41,379 nucleotides of DNA from the NCBI GenBank assembly GCA_905178155.1, contig CAJINV010000023.1:129038-170416 (forward strand), written 5' to 3'. The stretch comes from Amoebophrya sp. A120 (taxonomy: Eukaryota; Protista; Dinoflagellata). Position 1 is the first letter of the stretch, and the number at the start of each line of letters is the position of its first letter. The notes under the pieces are model-generated. The model worked only from the letters and a program-made list of their open reading frames with translations. It did not search any database and had not been told where the DNA came from. Made by a program: the position numbers and the translations under genes. Below, piece after piece: positions 8,250 to 40,753 of this stretch.

Positions 8250-8478
8250 TATGGGGGCGTCAGGATCGAAATCGACAAAACCGAAAAAAAATATATGGAA
8301 GTCCTTGGCGGGGACCCTCCGGGACCCCTTTCGATTCTGGCACACTCAAGCATACCGTCGCGGCTAGCTCGAAGGGGTCCGAGTGTGTCAGAATCAAAAA
8401 GCGAAAGCCCGGCACCCCTCCAGGGGGCCCCAGGATTTTTTATTCGGTTTTGCGAATTTCGATCCTGGCGCCCCCATA
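8250..8478. mobile_element. Introner K1 (family I), 229 bp
   Basis: TIR TATGGGGGCGTCAGGATCGAAAT / ATTTCGATCCTGGCGCCCCCATA; perfect TSD GACCT; contains the TAG at 8365. Confidence 0.93.
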
Positions 8479-14558: not shown

Positions 14559-14781
14559 TGCGATCGGTGAGTTTAGTGGTGAATTTAAAAACGGCAGGCC
14601 GGTGAATTTAGTAAATTGCGTCCGGTGAATTTAACTTCCCCCTACCTGTTTCTCGATTCTGGGTCGCCACAAAACTGGCGCCAGTTTTGCCATTTATTTC
14701 TAAACCCACCGCCACCGGACGCAATTTACTAAATTCACCGGCCTGCCGTTTCTAAATTCACCACTAAGCCCACCGATCGCA
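14559..14781. repeat. Near-perfect hairpin/MITE-like element, 69-bp arms
   Basis: 14559-14627 versus 14713-14781 with 3 mismatches; GGTGAATTTA sub-repeats; loop holds perfect 20-bp palindrome CAAAACTGGCGCCAGTTTTG (14670-14689). Confidence 0.93.
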
Positions 14782-21851: not shown

Positions 21852-24800
21852 ATGCAGCTGAAAAGTTTTGCACTTCTGACCGCGGCCTACCTGGTGCCGA
21901 CCTGCGTTCTGTATCACACGTGCTCCTACCGCCGGGAGGAAGTGCAACTGCTGCGGGACGAGAAGCAAAACCCAAGGTTCCTGTTGTACCGAGTAATATC
22001 GTCCTCGGACGGCAAAAACAGTTTGTCTTTGTCACCAGCAGCTGCGCGTTCCGCCGCCACTAGGAAAAAAAGGAGACGCAAGGAGGATGTCAGCAAGGGC
22101 GTGCGAGTCCCTCAGGAGGAAGCGGCGGTCGCAAAAGGAGGCGACGCACCAGGCAGGACAACAACTGACGGCGAGGCAGTTTCGCATAGCCATAAACACG
22201 CAGTCGTCGAGCAAAAATCAGAACAACTAGACACGGAGTCAGCCCGCCGGCTTCTTCTCAAAGAAGCCGCCCGGGAGTTTTCTCAGCTGCGCGAAGTGTG
22301 GAGACCATTGGGCGAGGTACGAGAGTGCACAATCTGCCCTCGTTTGTACCCCTCAAATTAGAGGAGCATATCTACTAGCAAAACGAAGAAACAACTTGCA
22401 GAATGGAGCACTTGCAGGACAAATCCACGGTCGGACGACTTCAATGTGGTTTCCTTGGACATGATCCAGAACTTGTCATGCAAATACCGCCCAAGTGCCC
22501 AGACAGCATTTGGCGTTTTGCATGACAAAAACAGGGGAAGGAGCTTGTGTACTTCCATACGAAAGCCGCGAAGTGCCGAAAGCAGAGCTGGCAAAGACGG
22601 GGAGGCTATTATAAGTAAAAATGTCCCCGCCCCAGAGCTGTCTTCAGGCGGGTTTGCAATTAGTACAGGAACAGTTGTAATGCGCATTCCCATGAGCATG
22701 ATCGTGATGAGAAGCAAAAGCATAAGCATTTTCAGTTGTGTTTTGGAAAAGTTTGTAATTCTGTAAAAAGGATGAAGAGCCATTTTTGTGATCCGGCTGT
22801 GCTTGCTAAGCTGCACTGGAATCTCGAGAGAGGAACTTGTAATACGTAAACTCCCACCAAAACTTCTGCATTTTTTGTGTCGCAAAGTTACCAAGAAAAC
22901 TTTACTCTGCGCCGGGGATGGTTTTTCCCCAGGATAAGAGCTGGAACTTCTGCCCACCACGTCGCCCGCCCGGCTCGGGGCGATCCGTCAGCAAGCCGAA
23001 CAAGAAGACACGGTGCACTCCACCGCCTTATGGTGTTCTCAAACGTTACACTCTCACGTGTTACATGGATTTGTTACGCAAATATACCATCAAGATCCAC
23101 CCGATCAAGCTGCTTCGCATGACAAATTTGCGAAGGGCTAAACAGCCCCTAAATCTGTGTGGAATTTGTAATGCTAGATGCGCAACCTCCTCCCTTTAGC
23201 TTTTGCTTTTTGCGCATTACAAATTCGTGTAACAGTAGTTGAGAATGTAACAGTTGAGAATCCCATACGCCTACCTGGCGAAGTTTTCCAAGCGAGGACA
23301 GGCCTATCGCCGGCTCCTATACCACGAGGTAGTGGTCAAGCTGACCAAGCACCAGAGCACCGAGTTATGGGAGTCTCAAATCGGTTACCTTCTCAACTGT
23401 TACATGAATTTGTCATGCAAAATTGGCACCGACATCTAGTACATGATCAAGCTGCTTCGCATGACAAGTTCTCGATGCCGCGCTAGATAGAATTGCATTA
23501 ATCTGCTCCAAACCTGTAATGCAAAAGGCGCAACCTTCCCCCTTTCACTTATGCCATTCTTGCATTACAAATCCACCATGTAACAGCTGAGAATGTAACA
23601 CGACTTGAGAACTCGTCCATACGAGTATTCCTTAAATTGGAATCGCGTCTTCACGGCAGAAGACACCAAGCCAGAAAGCGGTTCACTGGACCAGCGCGAC
23701 AGAGATGCGGCACTTATCCAGTGCAAAAAAATCGTACTCGTATAGCGATCATGCATTACTTTAGGTAAATCAGCATTACAGATTGTATTCGTCATGCTGA
23801 AGAAATTTGTATATGCATTTGTACGAGGAGTGCGAGTGCGACACTTTTGCACTGGATAGCACTCCTGAGCCAGCAAATCTCGTCGTCCACTTCGAATATG
23901 CCCTGAAAATTAACCATCCCCATCCAATTTGTCATGCAAAGCACGCATAAAGTCCTTTGTTTGTCATGCAAAAAATCGATGGGGATGGGTATTAATTTTC
24001 ACGGAATATCGAACGCAGAAAGCGAAGAGCCTCCTCCTGCCCCCGCTTCCGCGGGCTCTATAAGTATATCCAAGAAAAAAACTGTGTTAGTGTGACTTTC
24101 TTGGAAGAATAGCATCACAAATTTGCTCTGCACGACAGAGAGAGCCTGTCATGCGCGCCTAGTACGTGAAAACACGTACGAAAAGAGCTTCTGATGCATG
24201 TCCAGCATGACAAGTGTAACTGTTTTGCACTTTCTGCATCACAGACTTACACTTACACAGTTTTTTTTTTGCATAAAGTAGGACGCCAGTGGAGTACTTT
24301 GTTCAGAGCAACGTCTTTGCGGTTGCGGATGAAAGCGTGCGGTATATCGCGAGGAGAAATCCCCCCTCTCCATATTGACAAGGTACGTTTTCGAAAATTT
24401 GCGTTGCTGATTTGTGACCGCAAATCGTCTCTGTGTTGCATGAAGGCAATTCCACAGACAGCCGCCGCATTCTACAGGCGGTTTGTCATGCTGTGGCTCC
24501 TACAGCGTAGAGGTCTGCCAAGCTAAGCGCATAGGCAAAAGTAAACCTGTCAGCTGAGGCTTGCTATGGGCCTGCAGTCCTCGCAAGCAAGACAACTTTG
24601 ATTCGTGCACACAAATCCAGCATCAGAAACTTCGTTTTGATACGGGGAGGGGGGGCTTTTCATTCTGATACAGTACATGTACGCGAACATGGCGATGGAC
24701 CTGCAGAAGCGGTGGTATGCACTGCAAAAGTATCGCACTCGTACTAATTGCAGTTATGCATATACAAATTTCTTTTTCAAGCCAAATGAGCATGACAAAT

Positions 24801-27800
24801 TCCATTTGTCATGCTGAGCTAATTTGTATTGCAATACTACGACTAGGACTACGATACTTTTGCAGTGCATAGGCGGAAGGCAAAGGTGAAAGTGAGCAAC
24901 CTGGACACGGCCCGGATGACGCTCTGTCCCTACTTGAAACTGTATCCTGTGCAAAAGTACCGCAAGTCGTCTTGCAGTCATGCATTACAAGTCTTTTTCT
25001 TAAGCTAAATCCGCATTACAAATTTTCTTTCTCATGCTGAGGCAATTTGTCATGCATTTACACGCGTGCGATACTTCTTTTGCAATTCATAAACTGGCTG
25101 CGGCATTGAGAAGTAGCGGAGGACGTAGTGGATCTGCAGGAGCATCACCGCCTTCACCCGCCGCCCCATCAGCAACGGCTCTTTCCTCCTCGGAGGACAT
25201 AAAGCCTCTTCCTCCTGCTGCTGTCGTGAGTGACTTTGAGGCCGAACGGGAAGAGATCGAGAGGCTGGCGCGAATCGTTTTGCAGGACGGGAAATCGCAA
25301 GGAGACGAGGCTTATGCGTCGCAAATATGTCTGGGTCTGGAAACATGTAAACTTCTGATGCGCATTTGAGAGCAGAAAAAAATCTGTCATGCATGGACCG
25401 CAAAAGTTGCTCATTTCTTGTCACCCAAAGAGGGAACTTGTCATGCGGATTACTTGGGCCTCGCCTAACCTGCTCAAAACCTGTGTTGCTAGGACTTGCA
25501 TGCTAGACCTTCCGTGTCATGCACAAACAGCATCGCACTCATTCAGACCCAGACATATTTGCATTTGATAAGGCTTCTAATATCAAGAGGACTTCATCTT
25601 CTGGAGGCTCCACGAACATCAAAATGCACGCCGCCTCTGCTCCACCCCCCTCGGTATCATCTGCAAAAGCATCGCGCCGCTCATAGAAGTACTTGACTGC
25701 ATGACAGAGCTGACTTCTTAGTAAATTTGGCACGACAAGTTCCACTTGTCGTGGTGCTGAGATGAAAATTTGTATTGCAATAATTTCTTCCGCTTCTATT
25801 TCTATACCGCGATCATGCTTTTGCAAGGCATAGTCGGTCTCGGTGAACAGGGCCAAATCTGCGGGCTGCCTCTGGGTCACGGTTTGTGGTCACTTTCGCT
25901 CCTTCCTGTTTAACGCGTGGAACCTGAAGTCTTTTTTCGAGCTAGCGAACACCAACATGCACTGCGTGTATTTCTCCGTCGTCGTGCGGTCCGACGCGGA
26001 AGCGCCCGGCAAGGTGTGGTGGGGCAATCGGGGCGCGGAAAAAATGAATCAACTGTTTGACGTGACCGTGTGGCTCCAGAGGATCCAGAACGCCGTATTA
26101 TGGATTGCAAATATGTCTGGGTCTGAAAGGTTGGAACTTGTAATGCTGTCTCTAGATTCCAAAAAAATCTGTATTACATGAGCAGCAAGAGGAGTCAGCT
26201 CTTGGCACGCAGAGAGGGCATTTCTCATGCATAATTAGCATCAAGAAGCTCTCAAAAAATCTGTGATGCTAGCACCAGCATCACAGACCTCACGGGTCAT
26301 GCAAAATGTGCATAACAAGACCCAGCTCTTCCACACCCAGACATTTTTGCAGTTGATACGTATTTTCCAACACCAATTTCTTCTACGTTGTCGTCGACCT
26401 CGAGAATCTATCCTGTGCAAAAGTATCGTACTCGTACGAATTGCAATTAAGCATGACAAGTCTTGTCCTGAAGGTAAAACAGCATGACAAATTCCATTTG
26501 TCGAGCTGAGGTAATTTGTAATGCAATTACTACTAGTACAATGCTTTTGCAATTCATAGAATCCGACCGTCCGGTCCCAAGACGGCGAACACGTTAGCTA
26601 CCTGGTGGCCAAGCGACTGCGAAAATTCCACGACACGTTTGCCCACGTCCTCGCGAAGATGACAGTGACAGGAGGAACCGGAACGCCTCGTGCTGGTAGA
26701 AGTGCCGAAGACAGCACCAAGACGCGTCAAAATCAAAATGAAGTGGATCCTGCTCATCATGATGATCTTCAAGAAGACCGCTCGTTTCCCGACCTGTACC
26801 AGCAAACGCACCTGATCACGAACGGCAAGAAGTCTTTCTACATTCTCGGAGAGAATGCGGATAGCCGACAGGAAAAATTACGGTTGAAAGTTTTCGACAC
26901 TGTGAAGCAAGAGTACGAAAGTTTCGTGAAACTCCAGAAGGGCGCCGACAACTACAACCACTACCTCCGTACCGGAGATGAAAATAGCCGGGTACTGCAC
27001 CGACGAAACGCGGACGGGAGCAGAACGGTTCGGAAGGATAGAAGCGTCGGTGGTGCTGGAGCGGGACAAAGTCAAAGTAGTAGTGGTGGAGACCACTATG
27101 ACGGCACAGTGGAAGATCTTGCTGGTGATCCGCTGCTGTTCCCAACGGACACACCGTTCGAGCACTCGCTGTATGCAATGCAAAAGCATCGTACTAGTAT
27201 GAATTGCATATACAAAATAGCCCAGCATTACAAATTCAATTTGTAATGCTCATTTACCTTGGAAAAAAGATTTGTAATGCATAAATGCAATTTTTTACTA
27301 CGAGTGCGATACTTTTGCACAGGATACGCTGGAACGATGGCTCCCCGGTCCGTTCCCGCCCGACTGGCCGGTCTCGGCGAGCAGAACCTTCGGCGACTCC
27401 TCAGTGGAGCACGTCTTCTTGCTATCGCAAGAAAAAAGTGTTACAGTTACACACTTGTTGGAGTTTCTGCAGCACAAAGTTGCTCGACATGGCCAAGAAA
27501 ACCTGTGATGCAGCCCACCAGACTATGTATAAGGCAAAACACGAATGAAATGAGGTTAGCAAGCATTTCCTGCATGACAGAGGTTGTCTGTCTTGCTTGT
27601 CTCCCATCAGAATGTGTAACTGTAACACTTTTTTCTCACGATACTTGCGCACGCGCCCCGATCTGGTCTACGACTTATGGCGTTCTCAACTGTTACATTC
27701 TCCACTGTTACATGTTGAATTCGTGATGCAAGAATGGGAAGAGTGAAAGGGGGAAGGTTGCACCTGTAGCATTACAAATTCCACCGCGCAGTTATTTTAG

Positions 27801-30800
27801 GCGCGGCTGATACCATTCGCAAACTTGTCATGCGGAGCAGCTTGATCGTGAGGATGATGGTGGCGCTTTTGCATGACAAATTCATGTAAATACGGTTGAG
27901 AGTGTAACGATTGAGAACCCCATACGACTCACAAATTGATTGGGGGCAGGTCTTCCTGGCGGCCCAGGTCACACGGCGCAAATGGTTCCTGCAGCGAGCC
28001 CAGCAACTGGAACAACTGCAGGACGAAGCAGAGGAGCGACACGCAGTTGCGGAGAGCAGCGGAAGTGGCACAGCTGCAAGTAGCACAGGTGCAACTTCGT
28101 CCCTCACCGCAGAAGCAGCTGCCGGCTTAAAGGCGGACTTAGAGTCCCCGCGGGCACTGCAAACCGGTCTGCGCGCTTTGCTGCGGAAGAGGCTGCAAAG
28201 CTTCCACCCAAATGTCCTCCTGGGCTGGGTGGCGCTGCATCAGGAGGCCGCGCTCACCATGAACGACCCCAATGAAATATTCTACTTCGGTACCGAGGCC
28301 CTGATGGACATCGCAAACAGCATCTGCCTCGACCACGGTGCATTCAACGGGCGGTGGCCTTTGGTCATAGTGCCGAACACGCTTCTCGGGATCATCCCTG
28401 GTCGCAAAATGTCCCTCGTCGCGCCGGGAGACGAAACTGCAACGGGCAGTATGTTGAGCAAGCACAAGCAGGGGAGCACAAGCACTTTCATCGCCGCTCC
28501 TACTTTATCTTCTTTGTCCAAAAAGACCGAAATAAGAACCTCTTCCGCGGTCGGGGGCACGACGTCGAGTGCGTCTGCGAATGGTGCGAAAATTCTGTCC
28601 GCGACAGAGCGAGAAGAAGCAGAGTTTTTTCAACGCCACAAGATCGAAGCGGACGAAAATATGCCCAAGATGGGGCTCGAGCTCATTGGCCTGTGGAATG
28701 CCGCCAAGGGGGCCATGGAAACGAAAATGCAGTCCGCGGAGGTATCAACTGCAAACACGTCTGGGTCTGGAAAGGTTGAACCTGTATTGCGTGTTTCGCA
28801 TATCTATGGAAATCTGTATTGCATAAGCAGCAAAAAATGATAAAGCAACACACTTGCGGCATGCAAAAGCACAATTTGTAATGCGTTCTGTGCATGAGAA
28901 AGCGTTTGAAAAAAAAATTGTAATGCTGCACTGCACTTAAAGGCACAGCCAATCATGACCACTCAGCATTTCAAGTTTCAGACCCAGACTGACATACTTG
29001 CACTTGATAGGAGGATGACTTTTACCAGAGTGACCTAGTCGCGAAGCTGTTGGAGTATGCTGTTCCATATCGTGTGCAAAAGTATCGTACTCGTATTGCA
29101 ATCATGCATTACAAATCATCTTGCCAAGGCAAATCAGCATTACAAATGTTATTTCTCATGCTCAGGAAATTTGTAAATGCATTTATACGAGTGCGATACT
29201 TTTGCAATGCATACTCCAGCTACTTCTTCGGACGGAACGAGGAAAGTGTCGGCATTGCAGAAACTCTTACAGGAGGAAAAACGACAGGCACGGTCACAGA
29301 ACCAAGCAACTAGTCCAGTACGCATTGCAAAAGTAGTTAGTAGTACCGGTGGAATTGTGTTCATGATTAGATAGGAGTTGTAGCTGCACTAGGATCGAAG
29401 CGAAGCTGGCATAAATACAATTCTTGGCAAGGAAAAAATGTGAATTTGCAATGCTGAGTGAAAAAGGCAAAGTATGAAGCCAGATCTTCCTCTGTATCTG
29501 AAATTTAAATGTGACCACACCTCAAGAACAATTCCACTTCAAACGCGATTCACTTTTGCACAGCATAACCATCAAACGTCGTGCACAGCGATGTAATGAA
29601 ATCGGGTCAGCTGCTCCTCACCGCGGTGCGGCGGTTTTTTCAGAAATTTTTCGCTATCTATTGTGAGGCAAAATCCCCAATCCCCATATCGAACAGGCGT
29701 GCTTTTCAAAATTTGTGATGCTGATTTGTGGCCACAGGCACAGCTCAAGTCTGTCTTGCAAGAGAACAAAGCCAGGGCTTCCGCTGCATTTCGCAGGCGA
29801 TTTGTAGTAAGGCTGCTATGCTACTAGGGCAGACGTCTGCCGTGCTAATTACCTACCCCAAGCCACCCCGACCCCTTTCCGGGCTTTGTATCTGTCTGCA
29901 GTCCTCCACCGCAAGACAAATCCGATCTGTGTACGCAAATCCTGCGTCACAGATTTCCATTTCGATATGGAGAGGGGCGATTTTTCCATTTAATACTATC
30001 GGCGCCGTCTACATGCTGCCCGGAACGCAGAGTGGGGTTCAAAACCGGGTGAGGCTATCCTGCGCGCGTTTGCTAAACGGCAACCACCAGTGCGCCGTTG
30101 GTTGCATGATCCCCGGCCAGGCGCAGGCGTCGGGCGCCAGCAACCTGAGTCACAACTTCGGGCTCTTCTACGACCTCATACAGACGACACAGCCGTCGTC
30201 TGGCTCCCGGGATCAACATCATGAGGAAGCGCATTACAATATCCTGAGTAAAAACGTACCCACAGCAGAGTCAAGATGGAAAATCTGCTAGACAAATCGG
30301 CCAACTTTGCTTGTTTCGCATGACAAATTTGGACGCGTAGTGTAGTGCTGTTTGAGCTAGTTAAGCAGCATTACAGATCTAGTCTCTCATGCTGATTGGA
30401 GCATGACAAATTTCAAAACACCCTTAGAAAATGCTTCTCATGGGGCTCCGCATGACAAACATTTTAAGCATGCAGATTTGCATGACAACTATGGTGTGGG
30501 TACGTTTTTACTCAGGATATACAAATACAAATTCGAGTTTCCGCTAGTTGACGTCACGATAGGGTCGACCATGTGGACGCGGCAGAAGGTATGACAGTGC
30601 ACAACTCCCCCTCCCCCTCATTTGTATTGCATCCACAGCAACACAAGCATCAGCAAGCATGCCGGTTCTGCATGACAGATTTGTATTGGAGTATAGTGCT
30701 ATTTGGGCTACCAGAACTTGTCATGCAAACAGTGCCAGGAGGCAATGGCTGAATTAGGTATTTTGCGTGACAAAGAGGGGGAGGGGGAGTTGTGCACTGT

Positions 30801-30859
30801 CATAGAAGGAGCCCATGGGCAACCCCGCGAACGGCAATGTGTTTCAGCTGGTGGGGTGA
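21852..30859 (+). CDS. Putative glycosyltransferase-like membrane-anchored/secreted protein, 1254 aa, 24 exons
   Basis: Exons (left TSD kept): 21852-22317, 22565-22606, 22942-23028, 23273-23365, 23627-23714, 23864-23896, 24014-24066, 24281-24344, 24676-24715, 24877-24942, 25097-25312, 25576-25654, 25838-26098, 26364-26408, 26564-27171, 27332-27422, 27649-27675, 27930-28742, 29015-29067, 29219-29318, 29573-29658, 30001-30239, 30525-30589, 30810-30859 = 3765 nt, open to TGA. N-terminal hydrophobic segment; motifs VTVCGHFRSF, FLRTRPDL, NDPNEIFYFG recall uncharacterised GT-A-like proteins (function is inference). Confidence 0.85.
22318..22559. mobile_element. Introner 1 (family J, degenerate), 242 bp
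   Basis: TACGAGAGTGCACAA...TTGTGTACTTCCATA; TSD CGAGG/CGAAA; interior resembles introner 23. Confidence 0.72.
22607..22936. mobile_element. Introner 2 (family B, degenerate), 330 bp
   Basis: TATTATAAGTAAAAATGTCCCCG...CGGGGATGGTTTTTCCCCAGGATA; TSD GAGGC/AGAGC. Confidence 0.7.
23029..23267. mobile_element. Introner 3 (family C), 239 bp
   Basis: TATGGTGTTCTCAA...TTGAGAATCCCATA; perfect TSD CGCCT. Confidence 0.93.
23366..23621. mobile_element. Introner 4 (family C), 256 bp
   Basis: TATGGGAGTCTCAA...TTGAGAACTCGTCCATA; perfect TSD CGAGT. Confidence 0.93.
23715..23858. mobile_element. Introner 5 (family D), 144 bp
   Basis: TATCCAGTGCAAAA...TTTTGCACTGGATA; perfect TSD GCACT. Confidence 0.94.
23897..24008. 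mobile_element. Introner 6 (family E), 112 bp
   Basis: TATGCCCTGAAAATTAA..CCATCCCCATC / GATGGGGATGG..TTAATTTTCACGGAATA; perfect TSD TCGAA. Confidence 0.93.
24067..24275. mobile_element. Introner 7 (family F-like), 209 bp
   Basis: TATCCAAGAAAAAAACTGTGT...ACACAGTTTTTTTTTTGCATA; perfect TSD AAGTA. Confidence 0.92.
24345..24670. mobile_element. Introner 8 (family G), 326 bp
   Basis: TATCGCGAGGAGAAATCCCCCCTC...GAGGGGGGGCTTTTCATTCTGATA; TSD CGGTA/CAGTA. Confidence 0.9.
24716..24871. mobile_element. Introner 9 (family D), 156 bp
   Basis: Perfect 20-bp TIR TATGCACTGCAAAAGTATCG; TSD GGTGG/GGCGG. Confidence 0.93.
24943..25091. mobile_element. Introner 10 (family D), 149 bp
   Basis: TATCCTGTGCAAAAG...TTTTGCAATTCATA; perfect TSD AACTG. 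Confidence 0.93.
25313..25570. mobile_element. Introner 11 (family A), 258 bp
   Basis: TATGCGTCGCAAATATGTCTGGGTCTG...CAGACCCAGACATATTTGCATTTGATA; perfect TSD AGGCT. Confidence 0.94.
25655..25832. mobile_element. Introner 12 (family D), 178 bp
   Basis: TATCATCTGCAAAAGCAT...ATGCTTTTGCAAGGCATA; TSD CTCGG/GTCGG. Confidence 0.9.
26099..26358. mobile_element. Introner 13 (family A), 260 bp
   Basis: TATGGATTGCAAATATGTCTGGGT...ACCCAGACATTTTTGCAGTTGATA; perfect TSD CGTAT. Confidence 0.94.
26409..26558. mobile_element. Introner 14 (family D), 150 bp
   Basis: TATCCTGTGCAAAAGTAT...ATGCTTTTGCAATTCATA; perfect TSD GAATC. Confidence 0.93.
27172..27326. mobile_element. Introner 15 (family D, inverted relative to 19), 155 bp
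   Basis: TATGCAATGCAAAAGCATCG...CGATACTTTTGCACAGGATA; perfect TSD CGCTG. Confidence 0.93.
27423..27643. mobile_element. Introner 16 (family F), 221 bp
   Basis: TATCGCAAGAAAAAAGTGTTACAGTTACAC...GTGTAACTGTAACACTTTTTTCTCACGATA; perfect TSD CTTGC. Confidence 0.95.
27676..27924. mobile_element. Introner 17 (family C, inverted relative to 3 and 4), 249 bp
   Basis: TATGGCGTTCTCAA...TTGAGAACCCCATA; perfect TSD CGACT. Confidence 0.94.
28743..29009. mobile_element. Introner 18 (family A), 267 bp
   Basis: TATCAACTGCAAACACGTCTGGGTCTG...CAGACCCAGAC..TTGCACTTGATA; perfect TSD GGAGG (GT-AG compatible). Confidence 0.93.
29068..29213. mobile_element. Introner 19 (family D), 146 bp
   Basis: TATCGTGTGCAAAAGTATCG...CGATACTTTTGCAATGCATA; TSD TTCCA/CTCCA. 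Confidence 0.92.
29319..29567. mobile_element. Introner 20 (family D-like, degenerate), 249 bp
   Basis: TACGCATTGCAAAAGT...ACTTTTGCACAGCATA; TSD TCCAG/ACCAT. Confidence 0.8.
29659..29995. mobile_element. Introner 21 (family G), 337 bp
   Basis: TATTGTGAGGCAAAATC...GATTTTTCCATTTAATA; perfect TSD CTATC. Confidence 0.92.
30240..30519. mobile_element. Introner 22 (family B), 280 bp
   Basis: Perfect TIR TATCCTGAGTAAAAACGTACCCACA; perfect TSD TACAA. Confidence 0.96.
30590..30804. mobile_element. Introner 23 (family J), 215 bp
   Basis: Perfect TIR TATGACAGTGCACAACTCCCCCTCCCCCTC; perfect TSD GAAGG (GT-AG compatible). Confidence 0.96.
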
Positions 30860-31845
30860 AGTTGCAGTTGCTCAGACGTGGTATTCGGAGCACTACTTCG
30901 GAATAATATGCAGGTTCTTCCGGGTAGTACATCCATGTGGTCGTCGTCGATTTCGTGCTGCGGAAATAAGTTCTTCGTCGATATGGACCACCAACATTTC
31001 CGTCGTTTATGTAAGTAGCAAGCTCTAGTAGATCTACGTTCTTCTTTTTCATCTTCTCTCCTTTGCGGACGCCAGCGCGGACGTGGAAGTTGTGGTATGC
31101 AAAATGCGCAACCGCATCCAGCTAACTCGTACGCAACTGTACTGCAATTATACTGAAGTGGTTGTAGTTCATGTGCTTATGCATACGCATCGTTCTTCAA
31201 TTTGAATCATGTTCTGCACACGGCGCACAACGTTTCCTGCATCCTGACTACATGATACGTCTATCTTCAAAACGAACGTGACAGCACTAAAGCGGCTGCG
31301 TGATATGAGGATAAAAAATAATGCCTGCTAGCTAATATGACGCTGGCTCTTGCGGTTCGAACCAGATGCGGACTGGTTGCTCAATTGCAATGTGTTTTCT
31401 TCATCTGTCTGTAATTAATACTACAAGAAAGGCTCGAGCTCGACACACGCGCGGAGCCGGAGTTGCTTTGCATAAAGACAAGAAAAGCATCGCAGCTCTC
31501 CTTGTTGATCACAATTGCAACTTTTTCCGGTCCACCTCCAAGCGACTTTTTTATTTTTTTCTTGCTTTCGAAGACGCAATGGATCACGATCACCAGGACA
31601 GCCTCGTCCTTGCAGCTGGATCTGCTCCTGCTTAGCAAACTTGATTAGCTTGCAGAATTATCGCAACCGTCATATTTATAAAGACGAAAAAACCTAGCGC
31701 TACTTCATCCTTCGTTTGCCATCTACTTTTTTGTTGGATATTTCCAGGGCGATGGCGCCACAAAAATTTTCATAAAGCACCAAGGCTAGAGCCGGCGACA
31801 AGAAGAGGCAGATAGTACTTTCTTCACCTTGCGCAACTTCACCTC

Positions 31846-34800
31846 ATGGAGGCGGGGAGCGGCAGTCCCGGCCAAGGCCTAATATGGGCCCCTCTGGACC
31901 AGAACGGCAAACATTTCATGCTCGAGGTTGTCACTTTCGTGCGCTTCGAGCTCGTTCCCTTCGTCTGCAGCGCGATCGTCGTGCTGATTTCAATTCTAGC
32001 ACTCTGCTGCACAACAACCGATGGTGGAGGAGATGGTACGACTAGAGGTTGCTCGTTTTTCATCTTTTCCTTGTGCAGGAGAAGCGCAAGAAGCGCAGCA
32101 CCGGTTCGCGGGGGCGAAAGCCCGCAGAAAAATACCTCGGCAACATCGTCCTCCTGCAGCGACTTTTTTCTAGCGACGATTTTCTCTTTCAAATCTTCGA
32201 GAGTCTACGAAGAGGTACCTGACGCAGTGGCGCTCGTCGGAAAGCCTGCGGGTGATGTTGATCATGCTGCACATCATCAAGAGCCGCAGGCAAGCGGAGC
32301 ACGACTTGTAGACCACAGCAAGAACCGGCGGAACCGTGAGGACATCGAACTGACACATCAGAGCGAAATAGCGAAGGAACAGGACGACGACGACGACGTC
32401 GATAGTGGCGGGCGGAGTCGAAGCGGGGACGTCGAGGCAGATGAAGTAGCACGACTGCAGCGAGAGCGACCCCAGCAGCACAACTACTACTGCACGCAAA
32501 CTACTTCTATCAAGCGACGAAAGCTTCTCAAAGTGACGCTTACCCTGTCCGTACTCGCATTTGCCTGCTACGTCGTCTTCTCTTCCACCGAGCTCATGTT
32601 CCTCCTATGCATGGCAAATTATATGTCTGGGTCTGGAAGAGGACAAGTTTGTCATGCACATTTTCCCTGAGTCGTGATGTCTGTGATGTATGCCTTAGCA
32701 TCTTCACATATTTTTTGAGTGCTTGTCGATGCGCATCCCGCATGACAAGTGTTCTCTGCGCGTAGCCAATACAATATATTGACTCCCCTTGCTGCCCATG
32801 CAATACAGGTTTTTCTAGCATCCCAATGCAGCATCACAAGTTCTTGCACTCTTCCAGACATCCAGGGATTTTTGCAGATGATACCTCCCGCGGGTGTACA
32901 AGGTTCGCTTCGGGGACGCGGAAACTTTTCCCACCGTGCCGGAGCGCTGGCGGGAGTGTACGGCTATCAAATGTAAAAATGTCTGGGTCTGGAAGATTGC
33001 AACTTGTGACGCTGTCTCTGCATTCTAAAAAAATCTGTATTGCATGATAGATCAGCTAGCAAGAGGGGTCCAGCTCCAGTTTGTGCTACACGGAAAGGGC
33101 ATTTCTCATGCGGGATAGCATCAGAAAGCCCACTAAAAATCTGTGATGCCAGGTTATGCATTACAGGCGTCATGGGTCATGTAAAATCTGCATGACAAGT
33201 CTGGCATTCTTCCAGACCCAGACACTTTTGCATTTGATAACGGCAGTGGAAGAGCAAGAACGCACCAGCAGGAGCACAGGAGGAATTTTGGATAGTGGAA
33301 GCAGGCGACACAGTCCCAGCAGCACAAAGAAATGGCGGTGGGATCCCGAGACCGTCGTGGGCCCGCTCGGGAAGCTTATGGATAGTAAAAATGTCTGGGT
33401 CTCCTGGAAGATTAGCACTTGTAATGCCAGCTTCCCATGCCTAGAGCTAGAAAATCTGTATTGCATAATCAACAAAAGTCGCAGCCGCTTTTGTCATGCA
33501 AAAACGCAGTTTCTCATGCGGATTGCCCATGGGAAAGCGATTTGGGAAGGTGTCATGCCGGACTGCATTCGGAAGTGTTTTCATCATGCACATTTTAGCA
33601 TCACAAGTTTCCAGACCCAGACATTTTTGCATTTGATAAAGTTGAAGAAGCCACCATTGTGGATCTTCGTAAACGACAGCAACTACGGCATCGGAAAGAA
33701 GATATGCAAGCAAACGGCGCCCGGTGTGAACCTGATAGTCAAGAAGTGTCTCGAAAGCTTCGAGCGGCACCTCCGGCCGCATTTCGAATTTGTGTACCTG
33801 AACGAGAAAAACATCACCAAGTTTCTCGATTTCGGAGACGGCCCGGGACTGCTGCCCCGGTGGCACGAGAGCCTCCCCGAGGGAGCGCAATACGCGGACT
33901 TTGCCTCGCTCTCGTTGCAGTACCGGTACGGGGGTGCCTACGTGGACTGGGACGTGCTGCTACTGAACAATATCAACCCGTATTGGGATCTGTTAGAGCA
34001 CTTCGAAACAGTGTTGATCGGCCCCACCAGCGTGCGTGGGTACGGCACAGCCTACGACGAGCACGGGCTGATCCTTTCCCTATTGTGAGGAAAAATCCCC
34101 CCTCCCCACGTTACCAAAGCGGGACACTTTTGAAAATTTGTAATGCTGATTCGTGACCGCAATCGTCTCTGTATTGCAAGAAGGCAAATCAACAAACCCT
34201 GCCGCGTTCTCCCAGCAATTTGCAGTGCTGTATGGCCTACAGAGGACGCGCCTGCCTCGCTAGGTGCCTACACCGAAACGCCCTTACTCAGGTTCTGTAT
34301 CTACCTGCAGTCCTCCATTGCATGACAAAGCAGATCTGTGTACACAAATTCCGCATCACAGATTTCCATTTCGATGTGGGGAGGGGGGATTTTTCCTTTT
34401 GATATTCCCGCCCCCGGAGTCTGTGGGCGGAGTCCAGCTTGCGGCTGATATCAACTGGAAAAGTGTCTGGGTCTGGAAACTTGTAATGCTTGGCTGGGAA
34501 TAGTGAATGCTGATGCTCTGTAATGCACAACCTTGCATGAGAAAGGTCTGCGCCGCTTAGTGTTGCGCTTCACGCATGACGAACTGCGTTTTTGCATGAC
34601 AGGCAAGAGGCCCTTTTCCTGCTCATGCATCACAGATTTGAGAGTCATGCCAGAGAAGCATGACAAACGTGCACTCTTCCAGACCCTGACCCAGACTACA
34701 TTTTTGCAATGCATAGCTGATGCTCCAATCCTACGCGGACTATGTGAAGATATCAAATGTAAAAATGTCTGGGTCTGGAAACTTGTACTGCTAAAAGTGA

Positions 34801-36737
34801 ATGATAGACGCACTGCAATACGCAGCTATGCATGACAAATTTTTTGGCTGCTATGTCTTACGTATTCCGCATGGCAGACTGCGTTTTTGCATGACAGGCA
34901 AGAGAACCTTTTCGTGCCTATGCAACACAGATTCTCGAGTCATGCCAGACAAGCATGGCAAACTTGCATTCTTCCAGACCCAGACACTTTTACAATCCAT
35001 AGAAGAGCCACCCCGACAATCTGCGCAGGTTCTCGAGGCAGGAAGTCATGGACAGCTTGGCAACGCCAACGTCGAGGGGAGCATCGGTGGCAGCTTCGTC
35101 CTCATCTGCGACGAGTGCTAGTAGTAAGATCCCTAGCGGTAGTACTAGTACGATGGAGAAAAAACACGATGCTGATGATCCCACCAAGGTTTTGAAGCAA
35201 CTCGGGCAACATTTCACGCTGTCCAAATACTGGGAAGTCACGCACAACGGTGTTGTTGCCAGACAAAACCACTGCAGCTTCGTCCGACTGTTATCGCAAG
35301 AAAAAAGTGTTACAGTTACACATTGTGTTGCAGAACACGCATGAGAGGCAACCTCTGTCATGCACGAAATGCTTTCAAACCTTATTTCACACGTGTTTTC
35401 CCGTAGGATTTCTGCAATGCAAGTTTTCTCTCTCATGCAGAGAAATTTGTGTTGCTGGATTGACAACAAATGTGTAACTGTAACACTTTTTTCGTGGGAT
35501 AACTGTACATGGGAAGTCAGTACACACCGGGAGGTTTCGCGAAGAACCTGTGCGTACCCACTGCAAAAATGTCTGGGTCTGTAAGAATGCCAGACTTGTC
35601 AACATGCAGGTTTTCCATGACCCATGAGGTCTGGTATGTAGGACAGAGCATGGCAGATTCTGTGAAATGAGTTCTACCATGCCTATCCTGCATGAAGAGA
35701 AGCTGCCTCTTGGTTAGGTCAAAAGTGGGCAGCTTTCGGCATCATGCGTCGCAGATTTTTACAGATTCAGATTTAGCATGACAACTTGCTTTGTTCCAGA
35801 CCCAGACACTTTTGCATTTGATAGTGCGAAATCGACGTCGCGACCGACTTCGACCTGGTTCGCCGAATCTATGCTAGCGCGATGCTGAATGACCTGCGAC
35901 TAGTGCATTTGTCGTATGCGAAGTTTTATCAACTGCAAACATGTCTGGGTCTGGAAACTTGTCAACATGCAAGTCTGTCAGTAATGAGTGCACTTTAATA
36001 GTTGGCCAATCATGACAAGTTTTTGAGCTCCTGCCTGTTGCGTACTTGTTACGCTTACGCATGGGGGGATCCGCATTTTCGTGACAGACAAAAGTATCTC
36101 ACTCTCCCCGTGCCTAAGCGTCAACACATAGTTAAGAGTCATGCCAGACACAGACTAGCAAGACAGATTTCGCACTCTTCCGGACCCAGACATATTTGCA
36201 ACGCATAGCTTCGCGTTTTATGACGAGCCGAAACGGAACCGGTGCGCCATCCCCAGTCTGCAACAATGTCCACTGGTCGATATGTTGCGGGCGTTTTCCC
36301 GAAACGAAATTGTGGACGCAAAGAGGATCTTCGATACGATGTTGAGAAGCAGTAGTACAAAAAAGGAGCTTTCGTCTCCAGATACATCAACAACTGGCGC
36401 TGATGTCTCAAGGACCACTGGAGCTGCTATTTCAACATCTGCTGTTGCTGACGAAGTGGTCCAGATTGAGCTTGCGGGCGAAGTAGACGAGAAGCGGTGG
36501 CTCTTCGACGGCAAAGACAACGCCGGCGTCCGAACCTGGCTGGTGCAGTACAACGGGCAGGCACGACCTGGAAGTGCTGCTGTATCAGAAGGGACAGCAG
36601 CAACATCAAGCGGAAATATCAAGTTTTCCCGAGAGGCCAAGCACGCAACTAGCGATATCAGCGCCGGCATCCTAGCCCCGAGTGCAGCGCAAATCGCCAA
36701 GAAAAAACTGCAAGAAGAAATTTGCCAGTTGAAGTAA
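31846..36737 (+). CDS. GT32-like / capsular-polysaccharide-synthesis-type DxD glycosyltransferase, membrane-anchored, 809 aa, 10 exons
   Basis: Exons 31846-32605, 32889-32964, 33245-33376, 33644-34080, 34410-34448, 34721-34750, 35007-35291, 35507-35554, 35829-35926, 36213-36737 = 2430 nt, open. Signature KKCLESF...VYLNEKNI...ADFASLSLQYRYGGAYVDWD; two N-terminal hydrophobic segments. Confidence 0.88.
32606..32883. mobile_element. Introner 24 (family A), 278 bp
   Basis: TATGCATGGCAAAT..GTCTGGAAGA / TCTTCCAGAC..TTTTGCAGATGATA; perfect TSD CCTCC. Confidence 0.92.
32965..33239. mobile_element. Introner 25 (family A), 275 bp
   Basis: TATCAAATGTAAAAATGTCTGGGTCTGGAAG...CTTCCAGACCCAGACACTTTTGCATTTGATA; perfect TSD ACGGC. 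Confidence 0.95.
33377..33638. mobile_element. Introner 26 (family A), 262 bp
   Basis: TATGGATAGTAAAAATGTCTGGGTC...GACCCAGACATTTTTGCATTTGATA; TSD AAGCT/AAGTT; in frame and stop-free. Confidence 0.92.
34081..34404. mobile_element. Introner 27 (family G), 324 bp
   Basis: TATTGTGAGGAAAAATCCCCCCTCCCCAC...GTGGGGAGGGGGGATTTTTCCTTTTGATA; perfect TSD TTCCC. Confidence 0.95.
34449..34715. mobile_element. Introner 28 (family A), 267 bp
   Basis: TATCAACTGGAAAAGTGTCTGGGTC...TTTTTGCAATGCATA; perfect TSD GCTGA. Confidence 0.93.
34751..35001. mobile_element. Introner 29 (family A), 251 bp
   Basis: TATCAAATGTAAAAATGTCTGGGTCTGGAA...TTCCAGACCCAGACACTTTTACAATCCATA; perfect TSD GAAGA; interior similar to adjacent introner 28. 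Confidence 0.94.
35292..35501. mobile_element. Introner 30 (family F, inverted relative to 16), 210 bp
   Basis: TATCGCAAGAAAAAAGTGTTACAGTTACAC...GTGTAACTGTAACACTTTTTTCGTGGGATA; perfect TSD ACTGT. Confidence 0.95.
35555..35823. mobile_element. Introner 31 (family A), 269 bp
   Basis: TACCCACTGCAAAAATGTCTGGGTCTG...CAGACCCAGACACTTTTGCATTTGATA; perfect TSD GTGCG. Confidence 0.93.
35927..36207. mobile_element. Introner 32 (family A), 281 bp
   Basis: TATCAACTGCAAACATGTCTGGGTC...GACCCAGACATATTTGCAACGCATA; TSD decayed (AGTTT/GCTTC) but removing 286 nt restores frame. Confidence 0.88.
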
Positions 36738-37205
36738 GGCGAAAACCGAGTGAGCAAATAGAGGACCAAAAACTAGAAGATTACCACCATGCAATAGAAG
36801 GATGACATTCATATTCAATTTTTGGAACAGACGAGAAGCAGTCTCGTCGGTCTCTGTGCTGCCCCATGTTCATTATTGGACACTTCTGCTCAGTATTACC
36901 ATGATCCGCTTTTGCAAGCGTCTCATCGTTTCCGGTGCGGTGTGGGCAAATGAGAGCAAGATCGGCATGCGGAAGTTTTGTTTATACGGATGCAATTCTC
37001 TTTGTCCTCATGCAGTTTTTATGTACACACAGGTACTTCTATCGGCATGGCTTTTTTTTGGAGGGATTCTTAAGTGCTATCCTTTGTTGCGGTGGCTCCA
37101 TATCTATTGATGGGAACTACAGCTGCGTAGCATGTCACAAAACTAGCAAGTACTTAATTAATACTACAGTGACAAGATGAAGGCCCATGCAAACCGTGGG
37201 AGGTC

Positions 37206-37519
37206 ATGAGGTCCTCGTGGACGACGTCTCGAGTGCCGTTTTCCCTGTTATCACAGGAAAAAACTGCTTCACTGTGATGATCTTGCAAGATCTGCGTCAC
37301 AAGTTTGTTACACATGAGCCAGAAAATTTACCATGCGCGCTTCCAAAGGGAAAACACCGTTAAAAAGTCAAGGACAAGGTCTTGCAGGTGTGGCAAGACA
37401 AATTAGTTCTGTGCTTCATTCTATGCACCACAAGTCCACAGTGAAACAGTTTTTTTTTGCGATACCTGTTCTGCTTTCTCTACTACGTCGTGGCGGGGTC
37501 GACGCACTTACTTTTCTGA
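37206..37519 (+). pseudogene. Truncated duplicate of the transporter's first exon, interrupted by introner 33
   Basis: Reads MRSSWTTSRVPFSL|FCFLYYVVAGSTHLLF* versus MRSFSWTTSGAVPFSLFCFLYYVVAGSTHLLL at 38171. Confidence 0.85.
37249..37464. mobile_element. Introner 33 (family H), 216 bp
   Basis: TATCACAGGAAAAAACTG...CAGTTTTTTTTTGCGATA; perfect TSD CCTGT; empty homologous site at 38215-38219. Confidence 0.96.
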
Positions 37520-38170
37520 TCCCGGTTTACGCACCTGGCTGCTGCGCTGATCCCCGTTAGCGCGACGGAGTCACGTTCCCGCCTCCTGTCGTGTTGTATC
37601 CTAAGAGAAGATGAATTTCATTCATCGTCGTCGTATTTAGTAAATAAGACGACAATCATGAAGGTGTTCTACCTCTTGGGAGTTGCGTTGGCACCGCTGA
37701 GGGCAACTGTCCCCCCCCACCCCAGACGGGGACTTCGGGGCTCGAGATCGAGGAAAAGCCTACTTTAACTGCGAACACTGTCGTTTCTGGGGCGCAAGAT
37801 GCTCCTGCTGATTCATCACCTTTGCGCGCGGCGGACGCCGCAACGCCGAGCGCGGCAGCCGTGGCGTCTTCTTCAGGCACGGCGTCTTCAGTCTTCTTCT
37901 CGTGTTTCAATTGAGACACGGCATGTTCGTGACAGGACGAAGAACCCGAGAGATTTACAGATCGAAAAAATGTTCTCTAGATCTTTTGTTTTTCGAAGAA
38001 GATGAAGATTAAGGTGTAGTTTTTTTTCCTTTTGAGAAGTTCCATCTGCTTTCACTAGTCCGCCTCGAGAAAAGCCCAGTTGTTGCTAGAATCTTGACAG
38101 ACCGCGTCGCACTCCTCGAGATCCGAGTTGCTCGAATTTTGACAGCCCCCCGTGCAAACCTTGGGAGGTC

Positions 38171-40753
38171 ATGAGGTCCTTCTCGTGGACGACGTCTGGA
38201 GCAGTGCCGTTTTCCCTGTTCTGCTTTCTCTATTACGTCGTTGCGGGGTCGACGCACTTACTTCTCACAAAGGCGACGGAAAACAAGAATGCGAGCGTAT
38301 GGACGTGCCAGGATCGAAATCGTCAAAGTTGAAATAGTTTGCCATGCATAAAACCGACACCAGTGGGAAGCCCACTTTTCAAGCGGCGCATGACAAATTT
38401 GCCGACCACCGGAATCCAATTTGTCATGCTGTTTGGGCACAGAAGACTGTTTTTGTCGTGCTAGTTTAGTAGCTCTATTTCAAACCCTAAACAGGCTTGC
38501 AATCGGCCTCACTTGCCATCCCGGCAAGACAGGCACTTCATGCCTTGCATTTTATGCATGACAAAGCATTTCAACTTTGTCGATTTCAAACCTGACGCTT
38601 CCATAGAGCGGGCGGCTGGAGTACGATACCACTGTGGTCTATCCCACGAAAAAACTGTTTCACTGTGACGATTTTGCAAGATCTGCATCACAAGTTTGTT
38701 ACACATGACAAAGAAAACTTGGCATGCGTGCTTCCTAAGGGAAAACACAGCTAAAAATCCAATGTCTTGCATGTGTAGCAAGACAAACACACTTGCGTTC
38801 CGTTCTATGCATCACAAGTTCACAGTGAAACAGTTTTTTCTTGCGATATGGTCGTCTCGCTGGTGGAGGTTTTCAAAGCCATTTTTGCGATTAATATGGT
38901 TCTGCTGTTATCCTGAGTAAAAACGTACCCACACCAGAGTCAGGATGGGGATTTTGCAACACAAACCTAGGAGCTTTGTGAGTCACGCATGACAAGTTGC
39001 ACTATGCAGTGTAGTGCAGGTTAGCAAGTGCAGCCGCATCACAGATTCATCTGCTCATCCTGTTCACAGCATCACAAATTCCAAAACACGACTGGAAATG
39101 GCTCTCATGGGGATGCGCGTCGCAAGTCTTCCTGTCTTTGCAAATCTGCATTACAACTCTGGTGTGGGTACGTTTTTACTCAGGATTGCTGTTCGGTAAA
39201 AAAAACAACGGAACGACAAAGTCCGAGATAGCGGAGCTGTGCAAGCTTGGAGAGCCTCGGTATGCCCTCCCCGGGCTCTTTTACGCGGTGCAAAACAACT
39301 GCATCATCCTTGCGGTGCCGCTCCTACACCCCCACGTATTCGGGCTTTTCAACAATTTGAAGATCGTGTCCGCCGCTGTGTTTTCGTCCCTCTTTTTGCG
39401 GAAGCGCTTTCGGGTACGGGAAAAAGTCGGCCTCCTGCTGCTCATCCTTAGCTTATCAAATGTAAAAATGTCTGGGTCTGGAAAAGTGGAGCTTGTAATG
39501 CGTGTCATGCATTCCTGGAAAATCTGTGTCCCATGAGCAGCAAAAGACAGGCTTTCTTTCTTGTCATGCAAAAACGCATTTTGTAATGCGTGCTAGGCAT
39601 CAGCAGGCCTCTCAAAAACTTGTCATGCTTGGCTGCCATTGGAGGCGTTTCAATCATGCGAAATTCAGCACCACAAGTTTCCAGACCCAGACATTTTTAC
39701 ATTTGATATAGCTGCGTCGTCAGCAAGTGGGAGATGGCCACTTCGGCCGTGCGTCAATTGATGATCCGGCCGAACAATGCTGCTCCGGACGAGCGGCGGC
39801 AATCGGCAACAATGAAGAACGCTAAAGGAGAAGCTGAAGACCAGCGGTTTCTCCTAGGTCTGTCCCTGACGCTGTTTGCAACCAGTGTTTCCGGTCTCGC
39901 GGGGGTCATCAACGAACACGTGCTGATATCCAGTGCAAAAGTACCGTGCAGCTCGAATGAATTGCAAATCTAAATCTTTGTGCATTGCAAATCCAGTTGT
40001 GCATTGCAAATCCAAATCTTTTTCTCATACGTAAGTCGAAGTCCGTGTCCAGACTACAAATTTTCATTGCGCAAATTTGCGATAAGCTTTCTGCTAATAC
40101 GATACTTTTGCACAGGATAGCTGAAGGTAGGGGGCAAAGTGGGTCATAGTTTCTGGATAAAAAACTACTACACCTACCAGTATGGGATTCTCTTCAATCT
40201 GTGTGGCAACGCCGTCAGTTATCTTTTGCAGAATTACCATCCCGGAATGACGAGTGGTGTGTTAAATACGTCAAATGCTAGTTCTTTTTCTAATACCACA
40301 AAAAATTCTTCTGATCTTTTTCTCAAGAAAACTAGCCCTTCTCTACTTCTCACGGGCTTCACCCCCCTGGTTTGGGCCCTGGTTTTTGTGTGGGTTCTCC
40401 TCGGCGTATCCGTGTCGTTGGTCTTCAAGTATCTGGACAACACGGCAAAATCCTTCGGAAATCCGCTGATAGTGTTTGTCACCTCGATTTTTTCGCATTT
40501 TCTCTTCGCGGACACAAACTTAGATGTGTACTTTTTCCAAGCTCTGGCATTGTATTTTTGCTCCGTCGCGGTGTATTCAGGAACTACTGCACCGTTCTTT
40601 CAGGTCACAGGTCTTGCTCCTCCTGGAGGTAGTTTTAGTTCTTCTAGTTCTGTTGCTACATCATCAACAAGGAACTTTATTTCGCTCGTGACAGAAAGTA
40701 GAACAGATACAGATGCAGATACCAGTACCATAAGGGAGAAAAAAAATGCCTGA
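38171..40753 (+). CDS. Nucleotide-sugar transporter (SLC35A, CMP-sialic acid/UDP-galactose transporter-like), 437 aa, 6 exons
   Basis: Exons 38171-38297, 38611-38639, 38854-38908, 39193-39453, 39714-39926, 40125-40753 = 1314 nt. Family motifs YDTTVVVSLVEVFK, YALPGLFYAVQNN, NLKIVSAAVFS, SGLAGVINEHVLK, SFWIKN, VFKYLDNTAKSF; multiple TM segments. Confidence 0.93.
38298..38605. mobile_element. Introner 34 (family I), 308 bp
   Basis: TATGGACGTGCCAGGATCGAAATCGTCAAAGTTGAAAT...ATTTCAACTTTGTCGATTTCAAACCTGACGCTTCCATA; perfect TSD GAGCG. Confidence 0.94.
38640..38848. mobile_element. Introner 35 (family H), 209 bp
   Basis: TATCCCACGAAAAAACTGTTTCACTGTG...CACAGTGAAACAGTTTTTTCTTGCGATA; perfect TSD TGGTC. 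Confidence 0.95.
38909..39187. mobile_element. Introner 36 (family B), 279 bp
   Basis: TATCCTGAGTAAAAACGTACCCACACCAGAGT...ACTCTGGTGTGGGTACGTTTTTACTCAGGATT (last base T); perfect TSD GCTGT. Confidence 0.95.
39454..39708. mobile_element. Introner 37 (family A), 255 bp
   Basis: Perfect 31-bp TIR TATCAAATGTAAAAATGTCTGGGTCTGGAAA; perfect TSD TAGCT. Confidence 0.96.
39927..40119. mobile_element. Introner 38 (family D), 193 bp
   Basis: TATCCAGTGCAAAAGTA...TACTTTTGCACAGGATA; perfect TSD GCTGA; internal ATTGCAAATC x3. Confidence 0.94.

What the first reader, a model, noticed from the sequence alone, without database searches (positions are those of the whole stretch)
23029..35501. Same introner families occur in both orientations on the sense strand
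Seen: all host genes are on +, yet introner 17 is the reverse complement of 3/4 (GATCAAGCTGCT.CGCATGACAA reversed), 15 is reversed relative to 19, and 30 relative to 16 (GCATGACAGAGGTTG versus CAACCTCTGTCATGC). All restore frame by the same rule. Established: spliceosomal introns are polar (donor, branch point, acceptor). Inference: removal is orientation-independent and depends on symmetric ends or structure; symmetric insertion favours DNA transposition over reverse splicing.
Basis: partly seen in the sequence, partly recalled or inferred. Interest (0 to 1): 0.82.

Follow-up and report, generated by a model that had tools for sequence, protein, structure and literature searches.

The report
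Transposon introns removed in either orientation
In a marine parasite of algae, small hairpin-ended jumping elements sit inside genes facing either way about equally often, and assembled transcripts lack them exactly whichever way they face, likely cut at one fixed distance from their mirror-image ends, which gives a testable rule for a splicing process whose mechanism is still unknown.

Summary
Confirmed. The window holds 36 elements (TAT...ATA inverted ends, 5-bp target duplication) of the published Amoebophrya A120 introner class. Four of six families here occur in both orientations, and the interiors are not palindromic. RNA-like contigs lack element plus one duplication copy exactly for 24 of 36, including all 8 minority-orientation copies. 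Pooled with a related assembly, 201 elements in 13 families fit 50:50 (P=0.38). Mismatched duplications place the cut: only one position fits all 5 informative sites here, 1 nt before the 5' arm and 4 nt after the 3' arm, in either orientation. Orthologue tests agreed at 2 sites and disagreed at 1. Introns then read N-TAT...ATA-NNNN, with no GT/AG need. The published top nine A120 non-canonical sites all start NT. Both-orientation introners are known elsewhere (Polarella, Aureococcus) but use GT/GC-AG-type sites. I found neither this orientation balance nor the fixed cut reported for Amoebophrya. DNA transposition is well supported. The splicing catalyst (likely a U1-less spliceosome) is inferred. 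The scan earlier noted similar signal-less hairpin introns in other dinoflagellate DNA.

The parts
22938..30859 (+). Host gene 1, unknown function, 21 elements; public model starts at the ATG at 24677
   Evidence: no Pfam hit
31816..36737 (+). Host gene 2, DXD-type glycosyltransferase region, 9 elements
38090..40753 (+). Host gene 3, nucleotide-sugar transporter, 5 elements
23029..23267 (+). Element 1, family A majority orientation
   Evidence: removal inferred from reading frame only
23366..23621 (+). Element 2, family A majority
   Evidence: reading frame only
23715..23858 (+). Element 3, family B majority
   Evidence: reading frame only
23897..24008 (.). Element 4, no family partner in the window
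   Evidence: reading frame only
24067..24275 (+). Element 5, family C majority
   Evidence: reading frame only
24345..24670 (+). Element 6, family E; duplication differs at position 2 (not read out)
24716..24871 (+). Element 7, family B majority; duplication differs at position 3, gene model uses the left copy
24943..25091 (+). Element 8, family B majority
25313..25570 (+). Element 9, family D majority
25655..25832 (+). Element 10, family B majority (weak assignment)
26099..26358 (+). Element 11, family D majority
26409..26558 (+). Element 12, family B majority
27172..27326 (-). Element 13, family B reversed; removed from RNA-like contig
   Evidence: 116 nt predicted = 116 observed
27423..27643 (+). 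Element 14, family C majority; removed
27676..27924 (-). Element 15, family A reversed; removed
28743..29009 (+). Element 16, family D majority; removed
   Evidence: 542 = 542
29068..29213 (+). Element 17, family B majority; removed; duplication position 1 from left copy
29319..29567 (.). Element 18, unassigned, starts TAC; removed; position 1 left, position 5 right
29659..29995 (+). Element 19, family E; removed
30240..30519 (+). Element 20, family F; removed
30590..30804 (.). Element 21, partners only in the second assembly; removed
32606..32883 (-). Element 22, family D reversed; joint seen
32965..33239 (+). Element 23, family D majority; joint seen
33377..33638 (+). Element 24, family D majority; joint 33375 to 33643: duplication position 4 comes from the left copy
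   Evidence: runs X1, X2, X3 (one sample)
34081..34404 (+). Element 25, family E; removed
   Evidence: 857 = 857 for 25-27
34449..34715 (-). Element 26, family D reversed; removed
34751..35001 (-). Element 27, family D reversed; removed
35292..35501 (-). Element 28, family C reversed; joint seen
35555..35823 (-). Element 29, family D reversed, starts TAC; joint seen
35927..36207 (-). Element 30, family D reversed; joint 35923 to 36210: position 2 left, position 5 right
   Evidence: runs X1, X2, X3
37249..37464 (+). Element 31, family C majority, upstream of gene 3; joint seen; an empty copy of its site lies near 38215
38298..38605 (.). Element 32; joint seen
38640..38848 (+). Element 33, family C majority; joint seen
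38909..39187 (+). Element 34, family F, last base T instead of A; joint seen
39454..39708 (+). Element 35, family D majority; joint seen
39927..40119 (.). Element 36, unassigned; joint seen

Best explanation
These are short non-coding elements with inverted ends and a 5-bp target duplication that lie in exons in either orientation about equally often and are missing exactly from RNA-like contigs either way, likely spread as DNA transposons and likely cut out by a relaxed, U1-less spliceosome at a fixed offset from their end hairpin. Steps: (1) inferred: a transposase or integrase acting in trans inserts the element as double-stranded DNA with a 5-nt staggered cut and no strand preference. (2) Shown: both ends read TAT-N7-AAA inward, so either orientation gives the transcript the same two ends. 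(3) Predicted: arm positions 8-30 pair and bring the ends together, while positions 1-7 stay loosely paired. (4) Shown at 5 of 5 informative sites in this genome, if one rule holds for all: the cut falls between positions 4 and 5 of the duplication, so the intron is N-TAT[C/G]...[C/G]ATA-NNNN and the original exon is restored. (5) Inferred: N-U-A stands in for the host's G-U-A donor, with the hairpin doing the bridging that U1 and the AG-reading factors normally do.
For: Orientation: majority count 119 of 201 against 117.5 expected at 50:50, P=0.38; pair edges 711 same, 709 opposite, 0 inconsistent; opposite-orientation pairs up to 94% identical over 208 nt. Removal: 24 of 36 elements, including 8 of 8 reversed, are absent by exact length or direct joint; element + 5 nt gives a median frame of 301 codons against 188-193 for +0, +3, +4, +6. 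Run X5 behaves as DNA and runs across element borders. Cut position: element 24 needs 4|5 or later, element 30 needs 4|5 or earlier; elements 7, 17, 18 agree through the public gene model; orthologue residues at L052 site 1 (3|4 or 4|5) and L011 (4|5 or later) agree. PMC7789003 Table S4 lists nine predominant A120 non-canonical sites, all starting NT. Intron +2 is T in 221 of 222 and +3 is A in 222 of 222; five canonical donors printed from L011 start GTA. No consensus in duplication or flanks. Arm mismatches on the sense strand favour G.U over A.C: 70 against 44 of 177 elements, sign P=0.019, with no G+T skew in interiors. The paper reports most spliceosomal proteins present and U1 not detected.
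Against: Nothing here shows a lariat, a branch point or snRNA pairing; the catalyst is inferred. One orthologue site (L052 site 2) has K where the 4|5 cut gives R, which fits 3|4 or earlier unless the exon changed (the proteins differ at 29 of 275 columns). Only two sites have direct contig read-out, from one sample, and contigs hide minor junctions. PMC7789003 calls the sites variable relative to the hairpin (Fig. 3 legend). The invariant T and A are also transposon termini, so their conservation need not reflect splicing. The G.U excess depends on the span chosen (positions 8-25: 54 against 40, P=0.18) and whole-element folding energy does not differ by strand (P=0.13). Terminal pairs can be broken without loss of removal (elements 18, 29, 34). 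Family D leans 57:38 (P=0.064).
Confidence: 0.6

Rival explanations
1. Same DNA transposition, but removal is by a dedicated non-spliceosomal nuclease and ligase that recognises the end hairpin and cuts 1 nt before and 4 nt after it, as proposed for euglenid nonconventional introns.
For: No GT or AG at the inferred cut in 34 of 36 window elements; U1 not detected; the arm stem forms in 217 of 222 sense-strand folds; Euglena introns follow a like rule of paired triplets at fixed, unequal distances from the two junctions (PMC12501133 abstract).
Against: The 5' end keeps U at +2 and A at +3 like the host's own donors; canonical and element introns share genes (L011); a tunicate precedent has non-GT/AG transposon introns handled by the U2 spliceosome. 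A bulge-helix-bulge geometry (recalled: 1 and 6 nt overhangs plus a 4-bp helix) does not fit 1 and 4 with a direct repeat.
Confidence: 0.22
2. Removal is orientation-independent but the cut slides within the 5-bp duplication; the apparent single register is an accident of few sites.
For: L052 site 2; the paper's 'variable' sites, 1-5 nt from the repeats; annotated A120 families show some GC and GA starts.
Against: Aligners cannot place a junction inside a perfect duplication, which would by itself give 'variable' sites; 7 of 8 informative sites fit 4|5; nine of nine top published sites start NT.
Confidence: 0.13
3. The elements spread through RNA (reverse splicing of the excised intron, then reverse transcription).
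For: The paper suggests the stem-loops may serve mobilisation and found no transposase in A120.
Against: Reverse splicing into mRNA keeps orientation and makes no staggered-cut duplication (established knowledge); observed 50:50 orientation and 5-bp duplications (perfect at 31 of 36 sites or differing as listed).
Confidence: 0.03
4. The elements are excised from DNA in some cells, so contigs lacking them are DNA.
For: X1-X3 are only guessed to be RNA.
Against: X1-X3 have zero depth in four interior bins that X5 covers; X5 contigs cross borders and none of its 15 shown joints (of 65) is a clean excision.
Confidence: 0.02

Closest known systems
Amoebophrya A120 introner elements (Farhat et al. 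2021, PMC7789003; read: abstract, sections 10, 11, 12, 16, passages, supplement part 2 and table rows; figures not visible)
   Same: TAT start, seven variable bases, then an A run; 3-5 nt direct repeats at the borders; non-canonical sites; the window's gene 1 is the public A120 model. These are members of that class.
   Different: The text seen gives no element orientation ('orientation' occurs only for genes) and leaves the border position unknown or variable. It doubts transposase mobilisation; the 50:50 orientation argues for it.
Polarella glacialis and Aureococcus introners (bioRxiv 10.1101/2020.10.14.339549, passages read; the Aureococcus paper itself was not held)
   Same: Inverted-repeat DNA elements with target duplications that make introns in either orientation.
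   Different: Those carry or recruit GT/GC/GA and AG sites, need specific target sequences, and the simple both-orientation classes are biased to one orientation. Here there is no target consensus, no AG and no detectable bias overall.
Euglena nonconventional introns (PMC12501133; abstract and passages read)
   Same: No GT-AG; paired ends at fixed, unequal distances from the junctions; MITE origin proposed.
   Different: Motif CDG/CHG at 3 and 5-6 nt with a purine after the 3' junction; here TAT/ATA at 1 and 4 nt with no exon preference. Unrelated lineage; 'orientation' does not occur in that text.
Fritillaria borealis non-canonical introns (seen through review PMC11282704 and PMC13326754 passages)
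   Same: Transposon-derived non-GT/AG introns on a genomic scale.
   Different: Preferred AG-AC/AG-AT ends and conserved U1; here both ends are free apart from +2 T, and U1 is reported missing.
A120 introner families of Gozashti et al. 2025 (PMC12130899; passages and 21 of 58 A120 rows of Dataset S7 read)
   Same: Mostly classed as TIR DNA elements; one family has integrase-like frames between inverted repeats.
   Different: Duplication lengths (2-5) and splice-site origin vary from row to row; no orientation counts in what was searched (supplement files 13 and 14 not searched).

Membership tests
Amoebophrya A120-type introner element | Inverted repeat starting TAT, 7 variable nt, then an A run | tested here: met
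   against the description
Amoebophrya A120-type introner element | 3-5 nt direct repeat at the borders | tested here: met
   5-bp repeat at all 36, seven with mismatches
Amoebophrya A120-type introner element | Repeated families, removed from transcripts, non-canonical ends | tested here: met
Non-autonomous TIR DNA transposon (MITE-like) | Inverted ends, fixed-length target duplication, no coding frame | tested here: met
   lengths 112-337 nt in the window
Non-autonomous TIR DNA transposon (MITE-like) | Insertion without strand preference | tested here: met
   P=0.38
Non-autonomous TIR DNA transposon (MITE-like) | Cognate transposase with the same ends | not testable with these tools
   no genome held
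Canonical U2 spliceosomal intron | GT/GC...AG ends | tested here: not met
   2 of 36 at the inferred cut; 5 of 36 in any register tried
Canonical U2 spliceosomal intron | Branch point and lariat | not testable with these tools
   contigs only; no branch consensus apart from the end motif
Aureococcus/Polarella-type both-orientation introner | Splice sites carried or recruited as GT/GC/GA and AG from a constrained target | tested here: not met
   flat target composition
Euglenid nonconventional intron | N3-CDG...CHG-N5-6 then purine | tested here: not met
   ends are N-TAT...ATA-N4, first exon base unbiased

The most novel reading that the evidence does not exclude
Amoebophrya has a second, non-spliceosomal splicing machine that reads a transposon's end hairpin as a ruler, cutting 1 nt before and 4 nt after it whatever the flanking sequence or the element's orientation, so that any exonic insertion of these transposons is silently undone in RNA.
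Probability: 0.22. Interest if true: 0.9.

Novelty: new variant of a known kind. Interest (0 to 1): 0.58.

Why it matters
How tens of thousands of non-GT-AG introns are removed in a eukaryote with no detected U1 snRNA is an open question (PMC7789003). Two simple rules narrow it: the interior does not matter, and the cut lies at a fixed offset from the inverted ends. They can be tested at once on public RNA reads at mismatched duplications, they would fix gene models, and they explain why these transposons can land anywhere in an exon at little cost. The element class itself is already described; the new parts are the orientation balance and the cut rule.

Tried and rejected
No whole genome was held, so genome-wide counts came from 80 loci of a related assembly; 51 short loci (L081-L131) were not used, and 134 of 320 detected elements were dropped for lack of a strand call. 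The detector found 31 of 36 window elements, 32 with a second pass, so diverged copies are under-counted. Raw-read runs X9 and X10 laid only 12 and 8 reads: no information on strand, level or minor junctions. Joint tables were cut (15 of 67 rows, 15 of 65), so elements 1-12 have no shown joint; this is not evidence of retention. Depth of X5 on the inverted ends is very high but is not a copy number. The L047 orthologue test was uninformative because the site lies in an unaligned stretch. A stop-codon test of registers gave one exclusion only (register 1|2 at L024). Folding energy by strand showed nothing. The internal motif GCAYNACR is enriched in elements (108 in 8.4 kb against 8 in 9.9 kb of exon) and lies on both strands with mirror-like placement, which fits DNA-binding repeats better than an RNA signal; not pursued. 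Palindromic interiors were rejected. Huff et al. 2016 was not held. Searches for a report of element orientation or cut position in Amoebophrya: and text searches; none found one, but subscription papers and figure images were not visible.
Full report
What is there. Between 23029 and 40119 lie 36 elements of 112-337 nt, each bounded by TAT...ATA (three carry one changed base) and by a 5-bp direct repeat. Removing each element with one repeat copy opens three + strand frames of 1086, 819 and 464 codons. The first equals a public protein labelled Amoebophrya sp. A120 at 944 of 945 residues; the others carry a glycosyltransferase region and a nucleotide-sugar transporter domain. The end motif matches the published description of A120 introner elements (PMC7789003 section 11). 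A duplicated stretch near 38215 lacks element 31 and has a single copy of its 5-mer, as expected if the repeat is a target duplication; that copy could also descend from a spliced cDNA.

Orientation. With 35 nt trimmed from each end, interiors fall into families A-F. Reversed copies are 15 (A), 13 (B), 28 (C) and 22, 26, 27, 29, 30 (D); E and F are one-way in the window. Interiors are not palindromes. In the window alone the majority count is 23 of 31 against 20.9 expected, P=0.15. A search with one end motif found a second assembly with the same families; its proteins are related but not identical to A120 (246 of 275 columns in one gene; 91-100% in nine of ten aligned pieces of another). From 80 loci I detected 320 distinct elements, called the host strand for 186 from exon frames alone, and clustered them with the 36 window elements: 201 in 13 families, 21 singletons. 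Majority count 119 against 117.5 expected, P=0.38; 711 same-way and 709 opposite edges, none inconsistent. Family D leans 57:38 (P=0.064). Both classes sit inside long frames alike (83 of 98 and 65 of 72 with 30 codons on each side; partly circular, since the strand call needs a frame).

Removal. Contigs of runs X1 and X2 join across 31-36 directly. Length balance shows 13-15 (116 nt predicted and observed) and 16-21 (542 and 542) removed, and no other subset fits. One 2096-nt contig skips 22-30 with exact lengths. That is 24 of 36, with all 8 reversed copies. Elements 7-12 rest on the public gene model and 1-6 on the reading frame only. X1-X3 are guessed RNA from one sample; they have no depth in four interior bins that X5 covers, and X5 contigs run across borders like DNA. 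Contigs cannot give splicing efficiency.

Where the cut falls. A perfect duplication hides the junction; a mismatched one shows it. Element 24 (majority orientation, copies differ at position 4) takes position 4 from the left copy; element 30 (reversed) takes position 2 from the left and 5 from the right, in three runs. The gene model takes position 3 left at element 7, position 1 left at 17, and 1 left with 5 right at 18. Only a cut between positions 4 and 5 satisfies all five. In the second assembly, orthologue residues agree at L052 site 1 and at L011, disagree at L052 site 2 (K in A120, R under 4|5) and say nothing at L047. So 7 of 8 informative sites fit. The intron then begins N-T-A-T and ends A-T-A-N4. 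Independent support: the nine predominant non-canonical A120 sites in Table S4 of PMC7789003 all begin with NT, although the authors saw no signature and aligner preferences may contribute. Targets and flanks show no consensus, and phases are 63, 56 and 42 of 161.

Mechanism. Insertion: inverted ends, a fixed duplication and no strand preference are what a DNA transposase or integrase leaves; reverse splicing would keep orientation (established knowledge). No enzyme was identified here; PMC12130899 describes an A120 family with integrase-like frames between inverted repeats, a lead only. Removal: the element is symmetric but the cut is not, so polarity comes from the RNA and the machine. Arm positions 1-3 and 8-14 match between ends in 78-100% of window elements, positions 4-7 in 36-58%, and two folded examples, one of each orientation, close a long end stem (z -3.8 and -5.2). 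Mismatches in the arms lean to G.U on the sense strand (205 against 151; 70 against 44 elements), which suggests selection for RNA pairing but weakens over positions 8-25. T at +2 and A at +3 mirror the GTA donors printed for a gene that holds both intron types. I favour a spliceosome without U1 in which the stem bridges the ends (0.6 for the whole account) over a separate nuclease-ligase as proposed for Euglena (0.22). No lariat or snRNA evidence was obtainable.

Known and new. The class is published. Introners that work in both orientations are reported for Polarella and, by citation there, Aureococcus, and a 2022 survey allowed for opposite-orientation copies in its method. Those use ordinary splice signals. 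For Amoebophrya I found no report of element orientation or of a fixed cut (searches listed under Tried and rejected; figures, two supplement files and subscription papers unseen). Two earlier notes of this scan describe signal-less hairpin introns in other dinoflagellate DNA; I did not check them.

Verdict. Observation confirmed, interpretation supported with two corrections. New variant of a known kind; interest 0.58.

Noticed in passing
window 1-100 and 160-310: The window starts with a long CTTTTG tandem run followed by 12-nt degenerate repeats, then further repeat arrays to about 5350; it looks like a chromosome end, but the unit differs from the TTTAGGG-type telomere reported for A120.
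   Followed up: no
window 8250-8478: A 37th element with a perfect 5-bp duplication and ends like element 32, inside what looks like a kinase-like fragment in the repeat-rich end region.
   Followed up: partly
window 18706-21303: An 865-codon + strand frame, kinase-like by eye, with no element in it, next to genes holding one every 370 nt or so.
   Followed up: no
window 37180-37530 and 38145-38275: A local duplication of the 5' part of gene 3; one copy holds element 31, the other is empty, and the filled copy is spliced in RNA-like contigs.
   Followed up: yes
window 14559-14781: A 69-nt, 96% inverted repeat with an 85-nt loop that lacks the TAT...ATA ends; likely a different MITE.
   Followed up: no
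window 2857-5346: Nested long inverted repeats around a 12-nt tandem array.
   Followed up: no
L001-L080: Element lengths cluster near 140-160, 200-230 and 240-280 nt.
   Followed up: no
sense-oriented set of 222 elements: Changes in the terminal triplet differ by end: 5' ends tolerate TAC (7) but rarely lose the first T (1); 3' ends lose the last A (6) more than the inner one (2); Fisher P=0.04, post hoc.
   Followed up: partly
window 22938-24676: The frame of gene 1 stays open for 141 codons, across six elements, upstream of the public model's start, so the model may be short at its 5' end.
   Followed up: no
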